Virus record (IMG/VR): IMGVR_UViG_2667528045_000005
Length of the DNA stretch: 30,049 nt
Direction: 5' to 3' (one strand)
Origin: a virus
Taxonomy: Duplodnaviria > Heunggongvirae > Uroviricota > Caudoviricetes
Shown: piece by piece, positions 20,670 through 30,049 of the stretch
Layout of the letters: each line of letters opens with the position of its first letter
How positions within the stretch are numbered: position 1 is the first letter of the stretch
Made by a program: the position numbers and the translations under genes
Notes under the pieces: model-generated
The model's input: only the letters and a program-made list of their open reading frames with translations
What the model was told of the DNA's origin: nothing
Database searches by the model: none

Positions 20670-21674
20670 ATGGGCGCGGAGATTAATATTTTGGAAACTG
20701 ATTTTAAAATAACCCTCGAAGGTTTCGCTACTGAGCAAGAAGCAAATAATATCGGTAATTTCACACTAGAAGCTATCCGAGCTTTAACAAAAAATCTCAA
20801 TCTTGATATCTCCAAATTAAAATGCGTGATTGTTTCCTATAACTTCAGTGAAGCTCTTCAAAAGGTAACATCCTCTTACCAACACAAATCCCCTAGTTCA
20901 TTTACCAATAGCAAACAGGGCGCAGCCGTCGGGCAGTTAGTAACAAAAATTGGCAATGATGGGCTATGTGAAGAATATACCCTTGTGCTATCGATTGATT
21001 TTTTTGTTGAGCTTTTCAATGATGGTAGCTTCTTAAAACTGAAAGAAGAAGGATACCTCGCAGTCATCCATCGCATTCACCATGAATTAGTGCACGTACA
21101 TGAAAAAAACTTACTAACATGCTTAGCCCAAAACTTTACAGTCAACGAGTATGGTAGCGCGCTTCTTATCTCAGCCACGCGTGCATGGTCTGAATATCTC
21201 GCTAATTACATGTCTTCGGGGTCTGCCCCTCAAGAAACTATCGATTTATTTTTAGAGAATCTTGACACTGTTGTAAATGAAGTATCTGACGAGATTGAAA
21301 AACTCATCTGGGGTTATAAGTACGGTAATATTTCTCTGAATGACATGTATCTTGAAGTAAAAAAACGTATCAGGCTAATCATCAACTCTTATGCTTATGC
21401 GATGGGTTATGTCCATTCTCTAAACATCAATATTAAAGAATACGATCCAAAGCTATCCCTTACACTATCCAACTCAAAGATAAGATATCAATTATCAGAA
21501 TTAGGCATTGCTTTTCAGAATCTTTATGGGAAGTTTAATGACCAGCACATTACAGGTTTTGGTGATTTTCGGGAGATAACAATAATCATTGATGAAATAT
21601 TCAAGCAGTTTGGGCTTGTTTTAGAGTGTCCCGATTGGTCTGGCGACGGTGAACTCTACATACATGTAAATTAG
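20670..21674 (+). CDS. hypothetical protein, AT-rich orphan gene; HRIHHELVHVHE segment (HExxH-like or HEPN-like)
   Basis: 334-aa intact ORF; markedly lower GC than flanking phage genes; inserted between portal Q and cos. Confidence 0.6.
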   Translation: MGAEINILETDFKITLEGFATEQEANNIGNFTLEAIRALTKNLNLDISKLKCVIVSYNFSEALQKVTSSYQHKSPSSFTNSKQGAAVGQLVTKIGNDGLCEEYTLVLSIDFFVELFNDGSFLKLKEEGYLAVIHRIHHELVHVHEKNLLTCLAQNFTVNEYGSALLISATRAWSEYLANYMSSGSAPQETIDLFLENLDTVVNEVSDEIEKLIWGYKYGNISLNDMYLEVKKRIRLIINSYAYAMGYVHSLNINIKEYDPKLSLTLSNSKIRYQLSELGIAFQNLYGKFNDQHITGFGDFREITIIIDEIFKQFGLVLECPDWSGDGELYIHVN

Positions 21675-21893
21675 TTTAATCATAGTAGAAACATAATTAG
21701 CAGTTTGAATCCTGCCACTCCTATAAAGCCGCTGCTCCTGGTGGCTTTTCCATGCACACCACCATCACGCATCAGATGCGTCTCACGCGCACGAACACAC
21801 TCGACCACCAACGAACCAGCAGCGACCACGACAGCGCCATCACGACGCGCTCAGAGGATAATTTTTATTATTATGCATCACTGCTGGCGCGCA

Positions 21894-21912
21894 ATGCTTT
21901 CCCCGCCACGCC
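21894..21912. other. cos cohesive-end sequence (186-type)
   Basis: ATGCTTTCCCCGCCACGCC is the reverse complement of GGCGTGGCGGGGAAAGCAT, the phage 186 cohesive end as I remember it (2 mismatches to P2). Confidence 0.7.
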
Positions 21913-22072
21913 TGCCCGCTTTATGGGGCGGTTTTAATGCAGTTGCATGACAACTCTGGATCCGCGCTAGCTCTGGCGGCGCACGGACAGAACGGGCAAG
22001 ACTGACGCATGCAAAACCATGCACCTAATGCATGCACGACTAAAAAACGGGAAATTCGCGGAAAAATGGCAT

Positions 22073-22106
22073 AAAAAAACCGGCATTCAGGGTGCCGGTT
22101 TTAGTC
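22073..22106. terminator. bidirectional intrinsic terminator
   Basis: A7 - CCGGCA TTCAGGG TGCCGG - TTTT; on the minus strand the hairpin is followed by seven Ts. Confidence 0.6.
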
Positions 22107-22120
22107 TGGTTTTGTCGCGA

Positions 22121-22222
22121 TTAATGGCCGCGCAATGCGCCAATAACACTGTTGAGGCACATGCTGGCAAAAATCATCAGAAAAATCGTCGTCCACGGAT
22201 TTTCATAAACGAGAGATAACAT
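22121..22222 (-). CDS. possible small hydrophobic membrane peptide (33 aa)
   Basis: MLSLVYENPWTTIFLMIFASMCLNSVIGALRGH; AAGAGGA upstream of the ATG; last ORF before the terminator; not in the ORF track (under 60 aa). Confidence 0.25.
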   Translation of the reverse strand: MLSLVYENPWTTIFLMIFASMCLNSVIGALRGH

Positions 22223-22238
22223 ATTTATATAGTTCCTC

Positions 22239-22523
22239 TTATTTGCGCATTCTGATGTGATTTAACAGGTGTTTGATAACGACTGATAGCTCATCTTTAC
22301 CGGCCTGCTCGACCATTTTTGCGGTGTAGCTTTCCACCTCGCGAGAGCTCAGGTCGTTATTTAAAGCCATTAAAGTCAGATTCTTTGCCCAATCGGCAAA
22401 CGGGTCATTTTTCGATGAAAGGGGATTTTGCATGTCCAAAAACCTCGAATTATTTAACCAGCAGACGGTTGAAGTATTTGCGACGCTATGACCGGCTAAC
22501 GCCTCGCGTAGCTCGTTGTTCAA
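22239..22523 (-). CDS. hypothetical protein (start uncertain: TTG at 22523 or ATG at 22433)
   Basis: 94-aa ORF in the cos-proximal island; N-terminal codons overlap repeat copy R1. Confidence 0.4.
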   Translation of the reverse strand: MNNELREALAGHSVANTSTVCWLNNSRFLDMQNPLSSKNDPFADWAKNLTLMALNNDLSSREVESYTAKMVEQAGKDELSVVIKHLLNHIRMRK

Positions 22524-22564
22524 CCCCGCCAGACCTGAAAGCGAGTTTCAGCTCCGGCGGCGTT
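22496..22564. repeat. 69-bp structured direct repeat, copy R1
   Basis: 60/69 identical to 22901-22969, no gaps; contains imperfect palindrome CCGCCAG..CTGAAA..TTTCAG..CCGGCGG; starts right after the 69-aa ORF stop. Confidence 0.6.
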
Positions 22565-22566
22565 AT

Positions 22567-22776
22567 CTATGGTCGACGTGGTGGCGGTGAGTAATGTGTC
22601 GGCTTGCTGATGCTATCCAGCTTGCCGTAATTATCCCTGACTATTTCGGCACACCCGACCAGCTCGGCGGGTGTCAAATTCTCATTGACCATTATCTGCT
22701 GCAGACGATGAACGATGGCCATCAGTTTGATGCTTTTAGTTTTGTGCTGCGGAATTTCGCCCGGTAGTCGATGCAT
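22567..22776 (-). CDS. hypothetical protein (69 aa)
   Basis: ORF with GAGGG RBS; bracketed by the two 69-bp repeats. Confidence 0.4.
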   Translation of the reverse strand: MHRLPGEIPQHKTKSIKLMAIVHRLQQIMVNENLTPAELVGCAEIVRDNYGKLDSISKPTHYSPPPRRP

Positions 22777-22900
22777 ATTATCGCCCTCAATGAATTTTAT
22801 TTAGCGCTGCCACAGCGCCACTATAAAACCCGCTAAGGTAACGTCCCATTCATCACTGGTGTGTAACCAATAAAACATCGAGAAACTTTGAGAGGAAGAA

Positions 22901-22969
22901 CTAGCGCCTCGCGGTGCGAGTTGTTCAACCCCGCCAGCACTGAAAGCAAGTTTCAGCACCGGCGGCGTT
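22901..22969. repeat. 69-bp structured direct repeat, copy R2
   Basis: Copy of R1; starts right after the DinI-like stop codon. Confidence 0.6.
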
Positions 22970-22971
22970 TG

Positions 22972-23205
22972 TTAATGCAGCCAGCTATCGTCCTCCCATA
23001 CCTGCTGCATGATTTCCATTACTCGTTTTTTATCTTCGTCCAGTTTCAAACCGCTTAGTTCAACGCCATTAGCGGAGCCCTTGCGAATTCGGATAGCAGT
23101 CTTTGGGTAAATAGGTTGAAGATTGCGGTACAGTTCAGCCTCAAGTGCATCCAATGTTGCCTGACTAATTTTTTGCTCTTTATCCAACGTGATATTGATT
23201 CTCAT
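22972..23205 (-). CDS. dinI: DinI-family protein
   Basis: 77 aa; MRINITLDK...LDALEAELYRNLQPIYP...DEDKKRVMEIMQQVWEDDSW aligns along its length with E. coli DinI. Confidence 0.82.
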   Translation of the reverse strand: MRINITLDKEQKISQATLDALEAELYRNLQPIYPKTAIRIRKGSANGVELSGLKLDEDKKRVMEIMQQVWEDDSWLH

Positions 23206-23208
23206 AAT

Positions 23209-23391
23209 CTAATCAGCCTTATAAAAATTATCATCTTCGGTTTCGTTATTTTCGCTGTTTGCTAGGTCTGCAATGAGAGTGAGCGCGAGCTTTAAGTCTG
23301 ATGGCTTGCAGTTTGCAATCAGAGATACCTCGGCAATAAATTGCACACAAGCCCACTTTTGCTGCGTTCGGCTGAAATGTTCGCCAACCAT
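23209..23391 (-). CDS. hypothetical small protein; candidate SOS-induced antirepressor (Tum-like) by position
   Basis: 60 aa, acidic C-terminus; first gene after the LexA box; stop 4 nt before the dinI-like start. Confidence 0.4.
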   Translation of the reverse strand: MVGEHFSRTQQKWACVQFIAEVSLIANCKPSDLKLALTLIADLANSENNETEDDNFYKAD

Positions 23392-23410
23392 GAAATCCCT
23401 CCCACAGGGT

Positions 23411-26754: not shown

Positions 26755-27264
26755 TCAAATCAGACCAAACGATGCGCCAATACCGCTCATGGTATCGACC
26801 ACGCTCGACATAGCTGGATTAGTCTGCAGACGTGCATGCAGCGCCAGAGCCGACAATGACAACATGCGAATGCCGGAGTTAACGCTTTCAATCATGTTGT
26901 GCTTACGGGCAGTGGTCAGACGTTCATCAGATACCGCGCCGCTCGCCAGTTCGCCGAGTTCACGCATCGCGCGCATGACATAAGACTGCAATTTGTCTTT
27001 AGCCAACTCATTAACCGGCACGCATGGTAGGCAGTGAATCTGCGCTAAAAAACCATCAATGAGGGTTGAGTCTTCGGTCAGGTCAGTCAGCAGCCACAAT
27101 TCAGGCGGCGTGAACTGGTGAGGCTGTTCCGGGTTGAGCTTGTTACGTAACGTTTGAACGTTCATACCTGCACGCTCGGCCAGCTTCGCCATGTTGTGAC
27201 GCTGTGCGAAAATGCGGCATGCTTCGTCATAGTGGGGATGTTTGGAAACCTGAAAATCAAACAT
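26755..27264 (-). CDS. B: replication protein gpB
   Basis: Start trimmed to ATG at 27264 (MFDFQVSKHPHYDEACR...) with GAGGGA RBS; P2 gpB-like; track ORF begins at an upstream TTG. Confidence 0.8.
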   Translation of the reverse strand: MFDFQVSKHPHYDEACRIFAQRHNMAKLAERAGMNVQTLRNKLNPEQPHQFTPPELWLLTDLTEDSTLIDGFLAQIHCLPCVPVNELAKDKLQSYVMRAMRELGELASGAVSDERLTTARKHNMIESVNSGIRMLSLSALALHARLQTNPAMSSVVDTMSGIGASFGLI

Positions 27265-27296
27265 GGTTAAATTCCCTCTAACTTGCATAATCAAAT

Positions 27297-27668
27297 TCAG
27301 TTAAGAGCGGTGCGCTGGTCGATGTAGCGACAATCAATCGCTTGTTGAGTCAGCTTATCGCGCCATGCTTTTACATTTACGAGGGTTCGGCTTCGTTTAG
27401 CAGCTTCCTCTTTGTTGGAAAAGTCTTTGGTCGGAGCTTTGAGAAGGACTCCCTCATCGAGCCATTGCCAGACCAGACGCTCGCTAACACCGCGAGTAGC
27501 GGCGAAGTCTTTCACAGTCATCGTGTCTGACATAGCGGAGCGAATCATTGTCTGTAGAGCTGGCAGCATGGCGGTAACGATGGCATCAAACTGTGTTGGG
27601 TCTAGCAGCACAGTTTGATTTTGTGAGTTTTGCGAGTCGTGCGTCGAGATTGATTTTGCATCTGACAT
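27297..27668 (-). CDS. Cox/Apl-like HTH protein (putative excisionase / lytic-switch regulator); start uncertain
   Basis: First gene of the early operon, divergent from cI; HTH-like TVKDFAATRGVSERLVWQWL; 123 aa is longer than Cox or Apl, so an internal Met may be the true start. Confidence 0.45.
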   Translation of the reverse strand: MSDAKSISTHDSQNSQNQTVLLDPTQFDAIVTAMLPALQTMIRSAMSDTMTVKDFAATRGVSERLVWQWLDEGVLLKAPTKDFSNKEEAAKRSRTLVNVKAWRDKLTQQAIDCRYIDQRTALN

Positions 27669-27781
27669 ATCGCATTATCTCCTGTTGTTTGAAATGTAGT
27701 GCAGTGGTGTGCATCTTGGTCGGTGAGCACCAATATAGATCGCTAAATTTTGGTTGTAAACAAAATTCTTGTTGGTGTCAT
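27669..27781. promoter_or_regulatory. immunity switch region (early and repressor promoters and operators)
   Basis: 113-bp gap between divergent cox-like and cI starts; direct repeats GGTGTGCA (27706-27713) and GGTGAGCA (27722-27729), plus TTGTTTGAAA / TTGTAAACAA inverted elements. Confidence 0.4.
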
Positions 27782-28627
27782 ATGTCTAAAAATGATGTTA
27801 ATGCGTCTGCCGCATTGGAACGTGTCCTTTCTGCATACGGCTTTAAGCAGCAAAAGGAACTAGCCGAAAGGCTTGGCATACATGCAAACAACGTGAGTAG
27901 CTGGCTTGCTAGAAACGTAATCCCTAGCAACGTTTTCGTTGAGTGTGCTCTTGATACTGGAGCTGACCTGCGATGGCTAATTAATGGTGAGCTTGCAAAT
28001 GCAAGATTTGAAGTGGTGAAAACTAAGCTTAAAGGTAAGCAACTCTATGATGAAATCATGGCAAATGGAGGGAGGGCGGTTCTGCGTCGGATTCTCGATG
28101 CGTATGGTTTTACTCTGCAAAAAGAGCTTGGAGATTTATTAGGTATATCTTCCGGCACTATAAGCACTTGGGTTAGACGCGATTTTTTCCCCGGTGACGT
28201 GGTTGTCACTTGCGCCCTTGATACTGGCGTATCGTTAGAATGGTTATCAACCGGAAAAGGCCAGATGCGTAACAGTAATGATGGTGAACCGGCAAATGCT
28301 TTAACGATTAGAAAGTGCCGCCTCGAGGCTGGCGAACTCAAAGATATCGGACGCTGGACTCCTGATATATCTATGGTTCCATCAAATACTGATGATTTAG
28401 TGTTTATTGATGGTGTGAGCACATCTTGGCTTGTTGATAGTTCTAACTCGAAGATAGGAAATGGTCGCTGGCTTATTGGTATTGATGGCGCACTCGATGT
28501 TTTTGACGTAATCAGGTTGCCAGGCGGAAAGGTCAGGTTATCAAATAAGTCTGCTGAGTTTGAATGTAATATTTCAGATATCACACCATCAGGTGCGGTT
28601 ATTTTTACTTTGGAAAAGCATGTTTAA
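27782..28627 (+). CDS. cI: CI-like immunity repressor with tandemly duplicated N-terminal HTH domain
   Basis: Start trimmed to ATG 27782 (MSKNDVN...), 281 aa; two ~65-aa repeats (AYGFKQQKELAERLGI...CALDTGADLRWL and AYGFTLQKELGDLLGI...CALDTGVSLEWL). Confidence 0.72.
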   Translation: MSKNDVNASAALERVLSAYGFKQQKELAERLGIHANNVSSWLARNVIPSNVFVECALDTGADLRWLINGELANARFEVVKTKLKGKQLYDEIMANGGRAVLRRILDAYGFTLQKELGDLLGISSGTISTWVRRDFFPGDVVVTCALDTGVSLEWLSTGKGQMRNSNDGEPANALTIRKCRLEAGELKDIGRWTPDISMVPSNTDDLVFIDGVSTSWLVDSSNSKIGNGRWLIGIDGALDVFDVIRLPGGKVRLSNKSAEFECNISDITPSGAVIFTLEKHV

Positions 28628-28636
28628 GGAGCAGTA

Positions 28637-28975
28637 ATGAAAAAGTTTATATTTGCGATAGTCTGCATTGCACTTTCTTCCTCAGCCATAGCCGCTGAGA
28701 AGTTTAAAGAGATAGACGGCGCTGCATATGGTGACAAGTGGCCTCTAACCTTTGAAAAGGCAAAGGTATCATGTGTTAACCGTGCTTATGCTTTTGTGTA
28801 TGACATCAAAACTGATGATAGATATCCTCTGAATGGCATGGCGGTAGATGCTGTTAAATCAGGAAAGCTGGAGGGGTCTAACTTAGATGACGTATGGAAG
28901 GATGACCCTGAGTATGACGGCGTTAAAATTTCAATTTCACCGGTGATTGATGCCGCTACAGCCCTTTGTAATTAA
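28637..28975 (+). CDS. secreted small protein of unknown function (signal peptide), moron between cI and int
   Basis: 112 aa; MKKFIFAIVCIALSSSAIA signal peptide; two Cys in mature part; lower GC than the phage core. Confidence 0.6.
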   Translation: MKKFIFAIVCIALSSSAIAAEKFKEIDGAAYGDKWPLTFEKAKVSCVNRAYAFVYDIKTDDRYPLNGMAVDAVKSGKLEGSNLDDVWKDDPEYDGVKISISPVIDAATALCN

Positions 28976-28999
28976 TTTTCTTTTAGCCTCGGTATCGCA

Positions 29000-30049
29000 A
29001 TGACTGTAAGTAAACAAAAAAGTGGAAAATGGTTGTGTGAACTCTATCCAAATGGTCGAGAAGGGCGGCGTATACGTCGGCAGTTCAATACCAAAGGTGA
29101 GGCCGAGGCATTTGAAGCATTTACCAAAAGCGAGAGTGAAGATAAGCCGTGGCTCGGCAAGAAAGAAGACCGCCGACGCTTAAGCGAGATTATTCAGCTT
29201 TGGCACAATTTGCACGGTCAAGCGTTAGTCGCCAGTAAGTCGAGATTTGCAAAGCTTCAAATCGTATGTAATGGACTTGGCGACCCGATTGCATCTCGCC
29301 TTACCGCGAAAGACTGGGCTCATTATCGTGACCGTCGATTACGTGGTGAAATAGACAATGGTTATCATAAAGACCCCTCGAAATGGATCGCCAAACCTAT
29401 AACCGTCAATCGCGAACAACAATACCTAGAAGCAGTGTTTAATGAGCTCCGCCGGTTAGGGGAGTGGAGCCTACCCAATCCACTTGATGGGATCCGAGTA
29501 TTCAAAGAAGCTGAGAAAGAAATGTCCTGGCTAACTTTGTCTCAGCTCCCGGAGCTGTTTCGAGCCTGCGAGCAATACGGCAAAGAAGACCTCACCATGA
29601 TTGTTAAGGTGTGCCTTGCAACCGGCGCTCGATGGGGGGAAGCGGAGAGATTGACCCGACCTCAACTTTCTCCATATAAACTAACGTTCACCAAAACCAA
29701 AGGTAAGAAGAATCGCACAGTTCCTATTCCTAAATGGCTGTACGACGAGTTGTCCGTACGTCAAGGCAGAATGTTTAAACCCTGCTATCAGGAGTTTAAA
29801 AAGATGCTCAAACTAACGAATATTGAATTGACGGAAGGGCAGAAGACGCACGTTTTGCGTCATACTTTTGGTGCGCATTTTATGATGAACGGAGGGAATA
29901 TACTGGTGCTGCAGAAAATTCTCGGACATGCCAATATTCGAGAAACAATGAAGTATGCGCACTTTGCTCCTGACCACCTTGAACAAGCTGTAACCCTCAA
30001 TCCGTTATCGCTGTATGTTGGCGACAATGTGGCGGCAGAGGTTGCATAA
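29000..30049 (+). CDS. int: tyrosine integrase
   Basis: 349 aa; C-terminal catalytic signature (HVLRHTF...GHANIRETMKYAHF); ends exactly at the window edge. Confidence 0.9.
   Translation: MTVSKQKSGKWLCELYPNGREGRRIRRQFNTKGEAEAFEAFTKSESEDKPWLGKKEDRRRLSEIIQLWHNLHGQALVASKSRFAKLQIVCNGLGDPIASRLTAKDWAHYRDRRLRGEIDNGYHKDPSKWIAKPITVNREQQYLEAVFNELRRLGEWSLPNPLDGIRVFKEAEKEMSWLTLSQLPELFRACEQYGKEDLTMIVKVCLATGARWGEAERLTRPQLSPYKLTFTKTKGKKNRTVPIPKWLYDELSVRQGRMFKPCYQEFKKMLKLTNIELTEGQKTHVLRHTFGAHFMMNGGNILVLQKILGHANIRETMKYAHFAPDHLEQAVTLNPLSLYVGDNVAAEVA

What the first reader, a model, noticed from the sequence alone, without database searches (positions are those of the whole stretch)
28637..28975. Signal-peptide moron between repressor and integrase
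A 112-aa protein with a clear Sec signal peptide and two cysteines in the mature part sits between cI and int, a slot that is empty in P2 as I recall, and is co-oriented with cI so probably expressed in the lysogen. Lower GC than the phage core. Exported lysogen-expressed proteins are classic lysogenic-conversion or superinfection-exclusion factors.
Basis: partly seen in the sequence, partly recalled or inferred. Interest (0 to 1): 0.5.

Follow-up and report, generated by a model that had tools for sequence, protein, structure and literature searches.

The report
Prophage copy of periplasmic YebY protein
The flagged ORF is a real, well-conserved gene for a small exported YebY/DUF2511-fold protein in the repressor-integrase operon of a PSP3/186-type P2-like prophage; the family, and its placement between a CI-type repressor and a recombinase, are already on record, but what it does for the lysogen is still untested.

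Summary
Observation confirmed. Window 28637-28975 (+) encodes 112 aa with a Sec-type signal peptide and two cysteines in the mature part. It lies 9 nt after the cI stop and 24 nt before int. The same interval is empty in P2 and 186.

New here:
- In about 90 related loci the order cI-DUF2511-int is kept and the reading frame is intact in every locus where it could be read whole. dN/dS is about 0.1.
- The gene exists as deeply diverged alleles that are swapped independently of cI and int.
- Seven of ten other DUF2511 lineages I sampled lie in P2-like prophage DNA and an eighth in other prophage-like DNA. In six of these the gene follows an HTH repressor-like gene, directly in four and one gene further on in two.

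Function is inferred only. My best reading is a lysogen-expressed periplasmic binder that protects the cell (exclusion or immunity type). The rival is modulation of host YebZ copper import. It is not a classical moron, because it has no promoter or terminator of its own. Interest is modest.

The parts
27782..28627 (+). cI immunity repressor, 281 aa, PSP3 type with two tandem HTH domains; first gene of the lysogenic operon
   Evidence: Pfam Phage_CI_repr (2 stretches, E 1.5e-47) plus Phage_CI_C. The start at 27782 agrees with the phage Midge annotation.
28626..28631 (+). Shine-Dalgarno AAGGAG for the DUF2511 gene; it overlaps the cI stop codon (TAA 28625-28627) and ends 5 nt before the ATG
   Evidence: Read from the sequence. 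An AAGGAG or AAGGG motif at this position is conserved across the related loci.
28637..28693 (+). Sec (SPase I) signal peptide, residues 1-19 or 1-20; cleavage predicted after AIA(A)
   Evidence: Hydropathy and the A-x-A rule. It evolves faster than the mature part (dN/dS 0.2-0.6). Recombination breakpoints fall at its 3' end.
28694..28975 (+). Mature YebY/DUF2511 domain (about 92 aa) plus stop codon; Cys46 is codon 28772-28774 and Cys111 is codon 28967-28969 (predicted disulfide)
28976..28999 (+). 24-nt spacer before int, with no terminator or promoter-like site
   Evidence: The spacer is 21-25 nt in nearly all related loci.
29000..30049 (+). Tyrosine integrase, 349 aa; last gene of the operon
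   Evidence: Pfam Int_N plus Phage_integrase. Host genes yfiB/dgcN follow it in complete genomes.
27669..27781 (.). Switch region between the divergent apl/cox-like gene and cI; it holds a promoter-like site on the minus strand (27760..27732, 10 of 12) for the lytic operon. The lysogenic promoter was not found by the consensus scan.
   Evidence: The arrangement is analogous to pR/pL of phage 186.
26755..27668 (-). cII (Phage_CP76, 26755-27294) and the apl/cox-like gene (27297-27668); in 186-type phages CII activates pE, which reads into cI and onward to int
   Evidence: Pfam and PHROG hits. The 186 annotation of pE. That pE exists here is inferred by analogy.

Best explanation
The gene encodes a small, non-enzymatic periplasmic protein of the YebY/DUF2511 fold. 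It is the middle gene of the cI-DUF2511-int lysogenic operon of a PSP3-type (Eganvirus, P2-like) prophage.

Inferred expression: it is transcribed with cI in the lysogen and with cI and int during establishment.

Inferred maturation: export by Sec, cleavage by signal peptidase I, and locking by a C46-C111 disulfide.

Inferred activity: stoichiometric binding of a target exposed in the periplasm.

The most likely benefit is protection of the lysogen's envelope against an incoming agent. This would be superinfection exclusion of other phages at the DNA-entry step or, less likely, immunity to a peptide toxin. It would parallel what MlbQ does for its producer and what the non-homologous periplasmic Glo protein does from the equivalent slot of phage K139.

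Shown here: gene identity, fold, operon anatomy, purifying selection, and allelic mosaicism. Inferred only: expression, localisation, target, and phenotype.
For: Identity and fold.

Operon anatomy:
- The SD overlaps the cI stop; there is an 8-9 nt gap to cI and a 21-25 nt gap to int in nearly all of the ~90 loci measured.
- The interval has no terminator, and promoter-like sites are not in excess of shuffled sequence.

Selection:
- 57 distinct intact proteins.
- Mature-domain dN/dS 0.08-0.15, comparable to cI.

Allele behaviour typical of specificity or immunity genes:
- Median dN is 0.33, against 0.23 for cI and 0.07 for int.
- 16 of 92 locus pairs with near-identical cI and int carry unrelated alleles.
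- Breakpoints sit at the gene borders and at the signal-peptide/mature junction.
- Hypervariable positions fall in residue groups 49-50, 57-58, 84-85 and 92-94, which lie outside or at the ends of the strands and helices of the AF2 model, around about 35 invariant residues.

Recurrence:
- Seven of ten other DUF2511 lineages sampled lie in P2-like prophage DNA and an eighth in other prophage-like DNA.
- In six the gene follows an HTH repressor-like gene on the same strand, directly in four and one gene further on in two.

Precedents:
- K139 glo sits immediately upstream of int and is annotated 'periplasmic protein; involved in phage exclusion'.
- 8% of P2 defence systems lie between integrase and primase (PMC13586616).
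- The same slot takes other cargo: a bPH_3-SHOCT protein and a 134-aa exported ORF.
- MlbQ is a self-resistance protein proposed to bind its lantibiotic (PMC8689200).
Against: - No expression, localisation or phenotype data exist for any phage-borne member.
- There is no match to any PADLOC defence model.
- Glo is not homologous (hhalign probability 1%), so that parallel is positional only.
- Overall dN/dS is low, and no site shows statistically secure positive selection.
- The only functional data for a Gram-negative family member concern copper uptake, not phages.
- My sample of ten other lineages was drawn from the sequences closest to the phage clade, so it is biased towards phage contexts.
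Confidence: 0.4

Rival explanations
1. Copper-homeostasis conversion. The prophage protein acts like host YebY. It docks on the host inner-membrane CopD-type importer YebZ (or on YobA) and damps copper import. That would alter copper-dependent signalling (mar activation) or copper stress tolerance of the lysogen.
For: It has the same family and fold as E. coli YebY. Co-expressing YebY with YebZ lowers cellular copper, and YebY is proposed to inhibit import (PMC11923076). YebZ-YebY fusions exist (PMC8689200). E. coli and Salmonella hosts carry the yobA-yebZ-yebY operon.
Against: There is no copC or copD next to the gene in any phage locus. Identity to YebY is only about 30%. Operon-linked YebYs form a tight separate clade with their own signatures (VIQIDDP without the Trp; PLND), which the phage proteins lack. 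A regulator of one conserved host transporter would not be expected to exist as many deeply diverged, freely swapped alleles.
Confidence: 0.2
2. Peptide-antibiotic immunity. The protein sequesters a bacteriocin, microcin or host antimicrobial peptide in the periplasm, in the way MlbQ is proposed to bind the lantibiotic NAI-107.
Against: It has no lipoprotein anchor, unlike MlbQ. No ABC transporter or toxin biosynthesis genes lie nearby. Lantibiotics do not normally cross the Gram-negative outer membrane (general knowledge).
Confidence: 0.1
3. A phage-cycle function instead of a lysogen benefit. For example, it might modify the envelope during establishment of lysogeny or after induction, to aid the phage's own entry or release or to prevent adsorption of progeny to lysing cells.
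For: It would be transcribed together with int from the CII-dependent promoter during establishment (inferred by analogy with 186). It is strictly conserved in the PSP3-type clade.
Against: P2 and 186 complete the same life cycle without it. Alleles are exchanged independently of the rest of the module.
Confidence: 0.1
4. Periplasmic inhibitor of a peptidoglycan hydrolase (Ivy/PliC-like). This could, for instance, block the tail-associated lysozyme of incoming phages.
Confidence: 0.05

Closest known systems
PSP3 gp28 (AAN08391.1) and its counterparts in phages SW9, SI22, SEN1, Midge, RCIP0057 and vB_EcoM-613R3; RefSeq WP_000713422.1
   Same: Same gene in the same place (cI-gp28-int), 63-84% identical in those phages. 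It is 100% identical to the protein annotated in E. coli TW10598 and 16 other complete E. coli genomes.
   Different: Nothing of substance. The window's allele is a chimera: its signal peptide resembles one allele group and its mature domain another.
E. coli YebY (PDB 7N0J), third gene of the yobA-yebZ-yebY copper-uptake operon
   Different: About 30% identity. Not next to copC/copD. Lacks the clade signatures of operon-linked YebY. Sits in a phage lysogeny operon.
MlbQ (PDB 2MVO/6QFP), lantibiotic NAI-107 self-resistance lipoprotein of Microbispora
   Same: Same fold and disulfide position. Extracytoplasmic binder with a protective role.
   Different: MlbQ is a lipoprotein with a long linker, is encoded with ABC transporters in a lantibiotic cluster, and comes from a Gram-positive host. 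Identity is 19-22%.
Glo of Vibrio phage K139 (Peduoviridae)
   Same: A small signal-peptide protein encoded in the lysogenic operon immediately upstream of int. It is annotated as periplasmic and involved in phage exclusion.
   Different: No detectable homology (hhalign probability 1%; no DUF2511 hit).
P2-like phage cargo and defence hotspots (Rousset et al. 2022; PMC13586616)
   Same: A variable accessory locus in a P2-like prophage. The integrase-primase interval holds 8% of recognised P2 defence systems. The slot also accepts other cargo.
   Different: This is not one of the two main hotspots. The protein matches no known defence family.

Membership tests
Pfam PF10709 DUF2511 / YebY family | Match to the family HMM above the gathering score | tested here: met
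   67.8 bits against a cut-off of 21, E 1.1e-18, profile positions 5-87 of 87.
Pfam PF10709 DUF2511 / YebY family | Two conserved cysteines that form the Cys48-Cys113 disulfide in YebY, plus the conserved Trp (Trp37 in YebY) | tested here: met
   C46, C111 and W35 align with them. W35 and C46 are invariant, and C111 is present in all but one, of the 22 clade members aligned. Actual disulfide formation was not tested.
Pfam PF10709 DUF2511 / YebY family | Alpha/beta fold of YebY: a four-stranded antiparallel sheet packed by helices | tested here: met
Pfam PF10709 DUF2511 / YebY family | Extracytoplasmic location through an N-terminal signal peptide | tested here: met
   Sequence features only: MKK, a 10-residue hydrophobic core, then AIA. 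Localisation itself cannot be tested with these tools.
Copper-linked AZY-operon YebY | Encoded next to copD (yebZ) and copC (yobA) | tested here: not met
   The neighbours are cI and int in the window and in every related locus.
Copper-linked AZY-operon YebY | Falls in the clade of operon-linked YebY sequences | tested here: not met
   In the NJ tree and alignment, AZY copies form a separate tight clade with VIQIDDP and PLND; the window protein has VWKDDP and PLNG. The tree has no support values.
Moron (autonomous accessory transcription unit in a phage genome) | Own promoter and terminator flanking the gene | tested here: not met
   The gap after cI is 9 nt and the gap before int is 24 nt. 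No terminator-like site lies in 28600-29000. The promoter-like sites do not exceed what shuffled sequence gives.
Moron (autonomous accessory transcription unit in a phage genome) | Absent from close relatives, with atypical base composition | tested here: inconclusive
   It is absent from P2 and 186. But it is present in every PSP3-type locus examined, and its low GC is shared with cI and int.
Superinfection-exclusion proteins (K139 Glo type) | Homology to Glo | tested here: not met
   hhalign probability 1%.
Superinfection-exclusion proteins (K139 Glo type) | Reduces infection by superinfecting phage when expressed | not testable with these tools
   This needs plating and DNA-entry assays.
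MlbQ-type lantibiotic immunity lipoproteins | Lipoprotein signal (lipobox Cys) and linkage to a lantibiotic or ABC-transporter cluster | tested here: not met
   There is no lipobox: V9 precedes C10, which is too close to the N-terminus. No such neighbours exist.
Periplasmic lysozyme inhibitors (Ivy, PliC/MliC) | Significant fold or sequence similarity, and the Ivy CKPHDC loop | tested here: not met
Known anti-phage defence systems (PADLOC-DB 2.0) | Match to any defence protein model | tested here: not met
   No hit at E <= 0.01.

The most novel reading that the evidence does not exclude
YebY-fold (DUF2511) proteins are an old, recurrent component of the repressor operons of P2-like phages across Enterobacterales, Pseudomonas and marine hosts. 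Under this reading they form an unrecognised family of periplasmic superinfection-exclusion or envelope-immunity proteins whose swapped alleles set specificity. The chromosomal copper-operon YebY would then be one specialised offshoot of a largely phage-borne family.
Probability: 0.25. Interest if true: 0.6.

Novelty: new member of a known kind. Interest (0 to 1): 0.33.

Why it matters
If the protein protects lysogens, it would give a function to a widespread domain of unknown function. It would also add a periplasmic, non-enzymatic mechanism to the defence repertoire carried by P2-like prophages. These prophages are common in E. coli, Salmonella and Klebsiella. If it instead tunes copper import, it would be a new type of lysogenic conversion acting on metal homeostasis and, through mar, on antibiotic tolerance. 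In either case the experiments are cheap, because PSP3, SW9, SEN1 and Midge are cultured phages that carry the gene. As it stands, the finding is an annotated gene of unknown function in a context already noted in the literature.

Tried and rejected
- Orphan ORF or chance ORF: rejected by homology and dN/dS.
- Lipoprotein: rejected, no lipobox.
- Recent capture of the host yebY gene: rejected. Identity is about 30% and the clade is separate. The 301 IMG/VR hits to host yebY all sit at the extreme contig end, so they are host flank of an integration site and not phage cargo.
- Homology to K139 Glo: none.
- 186 Orf69 as a counterpart: it lies downstream of int, is a repeat-rich protein that is not exported, and is unrelated.
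- Known defence family: no PADLOC hit.
- NCBIfam: no model matches even E. coli YebY, so the result is uninformative.
- Actinophage or other cultured-phage DUF2511 genes: tblastn with three distant members found only the PSP3 group, and a fourth (P0256) additionally found phage 520873.
- RNA element or repeats in or over the gene: none.
- Site-wise positive selection: a parsimony count shows hypervariable sites but nothing statistically secure, and recombination violates the single-tree assumption.
- Literature on the function of phage-borne YebY: none found. Nesper et al. 1999 on Glo is not in the library.
- A profile-based scan of viral contigs with the diverse alignment failed because no stretch was conserved enough.
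- The species-representative genome scan gave only 3 loci.

Full report
**1. The observation**

The ORF at 28637-28975 (+) exists as described: ATG to TAA, 112 aa.

- The N-terminus has the anatomy of a Sec/SPase I signal peptide: MKK, a hydrophobic core F4-L13, then SSSAIA-A. There is no lipobox.
- The predicted mature protein is about 92 aa, acidic (pI 4.6), with two cysteines, C46 and C111. A third cysteine, C10, lies in the signal peptide.
- Upstream is a CI repressor at 27782-28627 with two tandem Phage_CI_repr HTH domains plus Phage_CI_C. Downstream is a tyrosine integrase at 29000-30049.
- The cI stop codon overlaps an AAGGAG Shine-Dalgarno that ends 5 nt before the ATG. The gap to int is 24 nt.
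- GC is 0.422 against 0.528 for the window. But cI (0.436) and int (0.469) are also low, so the whole lysogeny module is AT-richer, not this gene alone.
- P2 has a 115-nt gap with no ORF between C and int. In 186, cI and int abut.

**2. What the window is**

- The window runs from gene D to int of a PSP3/186-type P2-like prophage (Peduoviridae, Eganvirus). It is 89-96% identical in DNA to phages vB_EcoM-613R3, SW9, SI22, Midge, SEN1, RCIP0057 and PSP3.
- The identical protein (P0001 = WP_000713422.1) occurs on more than 900 contigs labelled Salmonella enterica and E. coli. It occurs in 17 of 5,426 complete E. coli genomes, and a further 7 carry recognisably related alleles.
- In complete genomes the prophage lies next to yfiB/dgcN/yfiR.

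**3. What the protein is**

- It is a clear member of Pfam PF10709, DUF2511/YebY: 67.8 bits against a cut-off of 21. It also matches phrog_2950, of unknown function.
- By sequence, phmmer finds one solved relative, E. coli YebY (7N0J), at E = 4e-8.
- C46 and C111 align with the YebY C48-C113 disulfide, and W35 with the conserved Trp37.

The literature on the family (PMC8689200; PMC11923076) says the following:
- YebY is a monomeric periplasmic protein stabilised by that disulfide.
- It binds copper only weakly, and only when reduced.
- It reduces YebZ-dependent copper accumulation when co-expressed with YebZ.
- MlbQ is a lipoprotein thought to bind the lantibiotic NAI-107.
- PMC8689200 also states that in some Enterobacteriaceae yebY lies between a XerD-type recombinase and a CI-repressor gene. 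That is exactly this context.
- PSP3 gp28 was annotated in 2002 as similar to the E. coli protein.

So the object and its placement are already on record.

**4. Conservation and operon anatomy**

- I examined 80 IMG/VR loci, 3 species-representative genomes, 8 loci carrying the identical protein, and the cultured phages. In every one the order is PSP3-type cI, DUF2511, int.
- The gap between the cI stop and the ATG is 8-9 nt in most of them. The gap to int is 21-25 nt in nearly all. An AAGGAG or AAGGG motif precedes the start.
- There is no terminator-like site between cI and int. The few promoter-like matches do not exceed what shuffled sequence gives.
- Because int has no other visible source of transcription, the gene must be transcribed whenever int is made from the upstream promoters. 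This is an inference by analogy with 186 pL and pE. It was not shown.
- All full-length copies are intact: 57 distinct proteins of 112-113 aa.
- Pairwise NG86 dN/dS for the mature domain is 0.08-0.15. That is similar to cI (0.07-0.15) and higher than int (0.03-0.04). The signal peptide is much freer, at 0.2-0.6.

This is a functional gene under purifying selection.

**5. Allelic mosaicism**

- The gene is the most diverged gene of the module. Median dN is 0.33, against 0.23 for cI and 0.07 for int.
- It exists as at least five allele groups.
- Sliding-window comparisons show clean replacement:
  - L044 is 95-100% identical to the window through cI and through the 3' part of int, but only 42-75% identical within the mature domain.
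  - L024 is the reverse: the mature domain is 98-100% identical while cI is 53-85%.
  - In L024 and L025 a breakpoint falls at the signal-peptide/mature junction.
- The window's own allele is such a chimera.
- Of 92 locus pairs with nearly identical cI and int, 16 carry unrelated DUF2511 alleles. Of 179 pairs with nearly identical mature domains, 103 have diverged cI.
- A parsimony count of substitutions finds about 35 invariant positions. Repeated amino-acid replacement concentrates at residues 29-30, 33-34, 49-50, 57-58, 84-85, 92-94, 98-99, 103 and 109. None of these is statistically secure evidence of positive selection, and recombination undermines the single tree used.

**6. A wider pattern**

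A profile search of 1.84 billion representatives finds 867 DUF2511 clusters. The PSP3-type clade collapses into one cluster (E = 3e-47), with the next at E = 5e-22. I looked up the genomic context of ten other lineages that are 28-45% identical to the window protein. Eight are in phage DNA.

Seven are in P2-like elements:
- P0025: 2xHTH cI, then DUF2511, then a bPH_3/SHOCT protein.
- P0256: HTH protein, then an Flk_N-like protein, then DUF2511, then int 5 nt later. There are 46 IMG/VR loci of this type.
- P0028, P0229 and P0133: downstream of small HTH proteins in elements that carry Ogr/Delta, gpD and gpU.
- P0218 and P0032: beside ogr/gpD at the other prophage end.

One, P0227, is in another prophage-like region, between an HTH gene and a GHKL ATPase.

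Two, P0247 and P0266, are plainly chromosomal.

In an NJ tree the copper-operon YebYs form one tight clade with their own signatures (VIQIDDP without the Trp; PLND). This clade includes the host copy that lies beside the Winslowiella prophage remnant. The prophage forms occupy at least five deep lineages that keep the general family motifs WP[LF]T, PLNG and [VI]W.D[DN]P.

Caveats: the ten lineages were chosen from the best hits to phage-like sequences, and the tree has no support values.

As a control, E. coli yebY itself hits 301 IMG/VR contigs, but always at the very end of the contig. That is host flank of a prophage integration site, not phage cargo.

Among cultured phages, DUF2511 is confined to the PSP3 group plus phage 520873.

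**7. How it most likely works**

Shown here: family, fold, cysteines, signal-peptide features, operon position, selection, mosaicism.

Inferred:
- Co-transcription with cI.
- Sec export.
- Disulfide formation. By analogy with YebY this would be by the periplasmic Dsb system; that is my own knowledge.
- Action as a stoichiometric binder. The family has no catalytic motif, and both characterised members act by binding or modulation.

The best-supported reading (0.4) is a lysogen-protecting periplasmic factor of the exclusion or immunity type. The reasons are:
- It is tied to the repressor gene across many P2-like lineages.
- It behaves genetically like a specificity determinant (old alleles, cassette-like swapping).
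- The same slot in K139 holds Glo, annotated as periplasmic and involved in exclusion, although Glo is not homologous.
- The slot takes other cargo.
- The integrase-primase interval is a minor defence hotspot in P2-like phages.
- MlbQ is a protective binder.

The main rival (0.2) is modulation of host YebZ copper import, which is the only activity shown for a Gram-negative family member. The separate clade, the missing copCD linkage and the allele diversity argue against it.

The lesser rivals are:
- Peptide-toxin immunity.
- A role in the phage's own cycle.

**8. Novelty and verdict**

- The gene, its family, a solved homologue and the genomic context are all already recorded. The window's copy is identical to a RefSeq protein.
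- What I could not find in the literature searched is any functional study of the phage-borne form. I also found no recognition that DUF2511 recurs in the repressor operons of diverse P2-like phages with swapped alleles.
- I rate it a new member of a known kind, of modest interest (0.33). The upside is real but untested: it may define a periplasmic exclusion or immunity family.
The 'moron' label does not hold in the strict sense. The functional guess is reasonable but unproven.

Noticed in passing
window 27782-28627: The cI repressor has two tandem Phage_CI_repr HTH domains plus the CI C-terminal domain (281 aa). 186 CI has a single HTH domain (192 aa). Every locus with the PSP3-type DUF2511 gene has this duplicated repressor type.
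   Followed up: partly
L012 3570-3974 and L023 (between cI and the DUF2511 gene): Some relatives carry an extra 134-aa ORF with a signal peptide and no Pfam or PADLOC match, inserted between cI and the DUF2511 gene. This is a second exported cargo protein in the same operon.
   Followed up: partly
L032 4355-4861 (also L031, L033, L037; L097 5475-5975): A 166-168 aa bacterial PH (bPH_3) plus SHOCT domain protein is inserted between the DUF2511 gene and int in several relatives. So the interval behaves as a small cargo hotspot.
   Followed up: partly
window 20670-23400: The classical P2 cargo region between the portal gene and the replication gene A holds a 334-aa ORF (20670-21674, +) with no Pfam family. 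It also holds several small ORFs and a DinI-like gene (22972-23205, -).
   Followed up: partly
L097/L098 1-5339 (Winslowiella toletana): A degraded P2-like prophage with its own cI-DUF2511 pair lies directly beside the host copC-copD-yebY operon. The two paralogues are therefore about 3.5 kb apart in one genome.
   Followed up: no
L162-L241 (IMG/VR contigs that hit E. coli yebY): Host yebY sits at the extreme end of 301 predicted viral contigs, mostly 40-50 kb. This indicates a heavily used prophage integration site immediately next to yebY in E. coli and its relatives.
   Followed up: no
window 27585-27658: Within and just upstream of the 5' end of the apl/cox-like gene there is a 14-nt inverted repeat (27585-27598 / 27606-27619). 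There are also two copies of AG(T/A)TTGATTTTG spaced 35 nt apart (27612, 27647). These are candidate repressor or Apl operator sites of the switch.
   Followed up: no
L105 5374-7350: In another prophage-like context the DUF2511 gene is followed by a 658-aa GHKL-type ATPase (HATPase_c_3). This resembles defence-type cargo.
   Followed up: no
L002 2084-2149 (phage Midge record): The deposited annotation calls a 21-aa ORF upstream of cI a 'putative ligase' on the basis of a 26% HHpred probability. This is almost certainly an annotation artefact.
   Followed up: no
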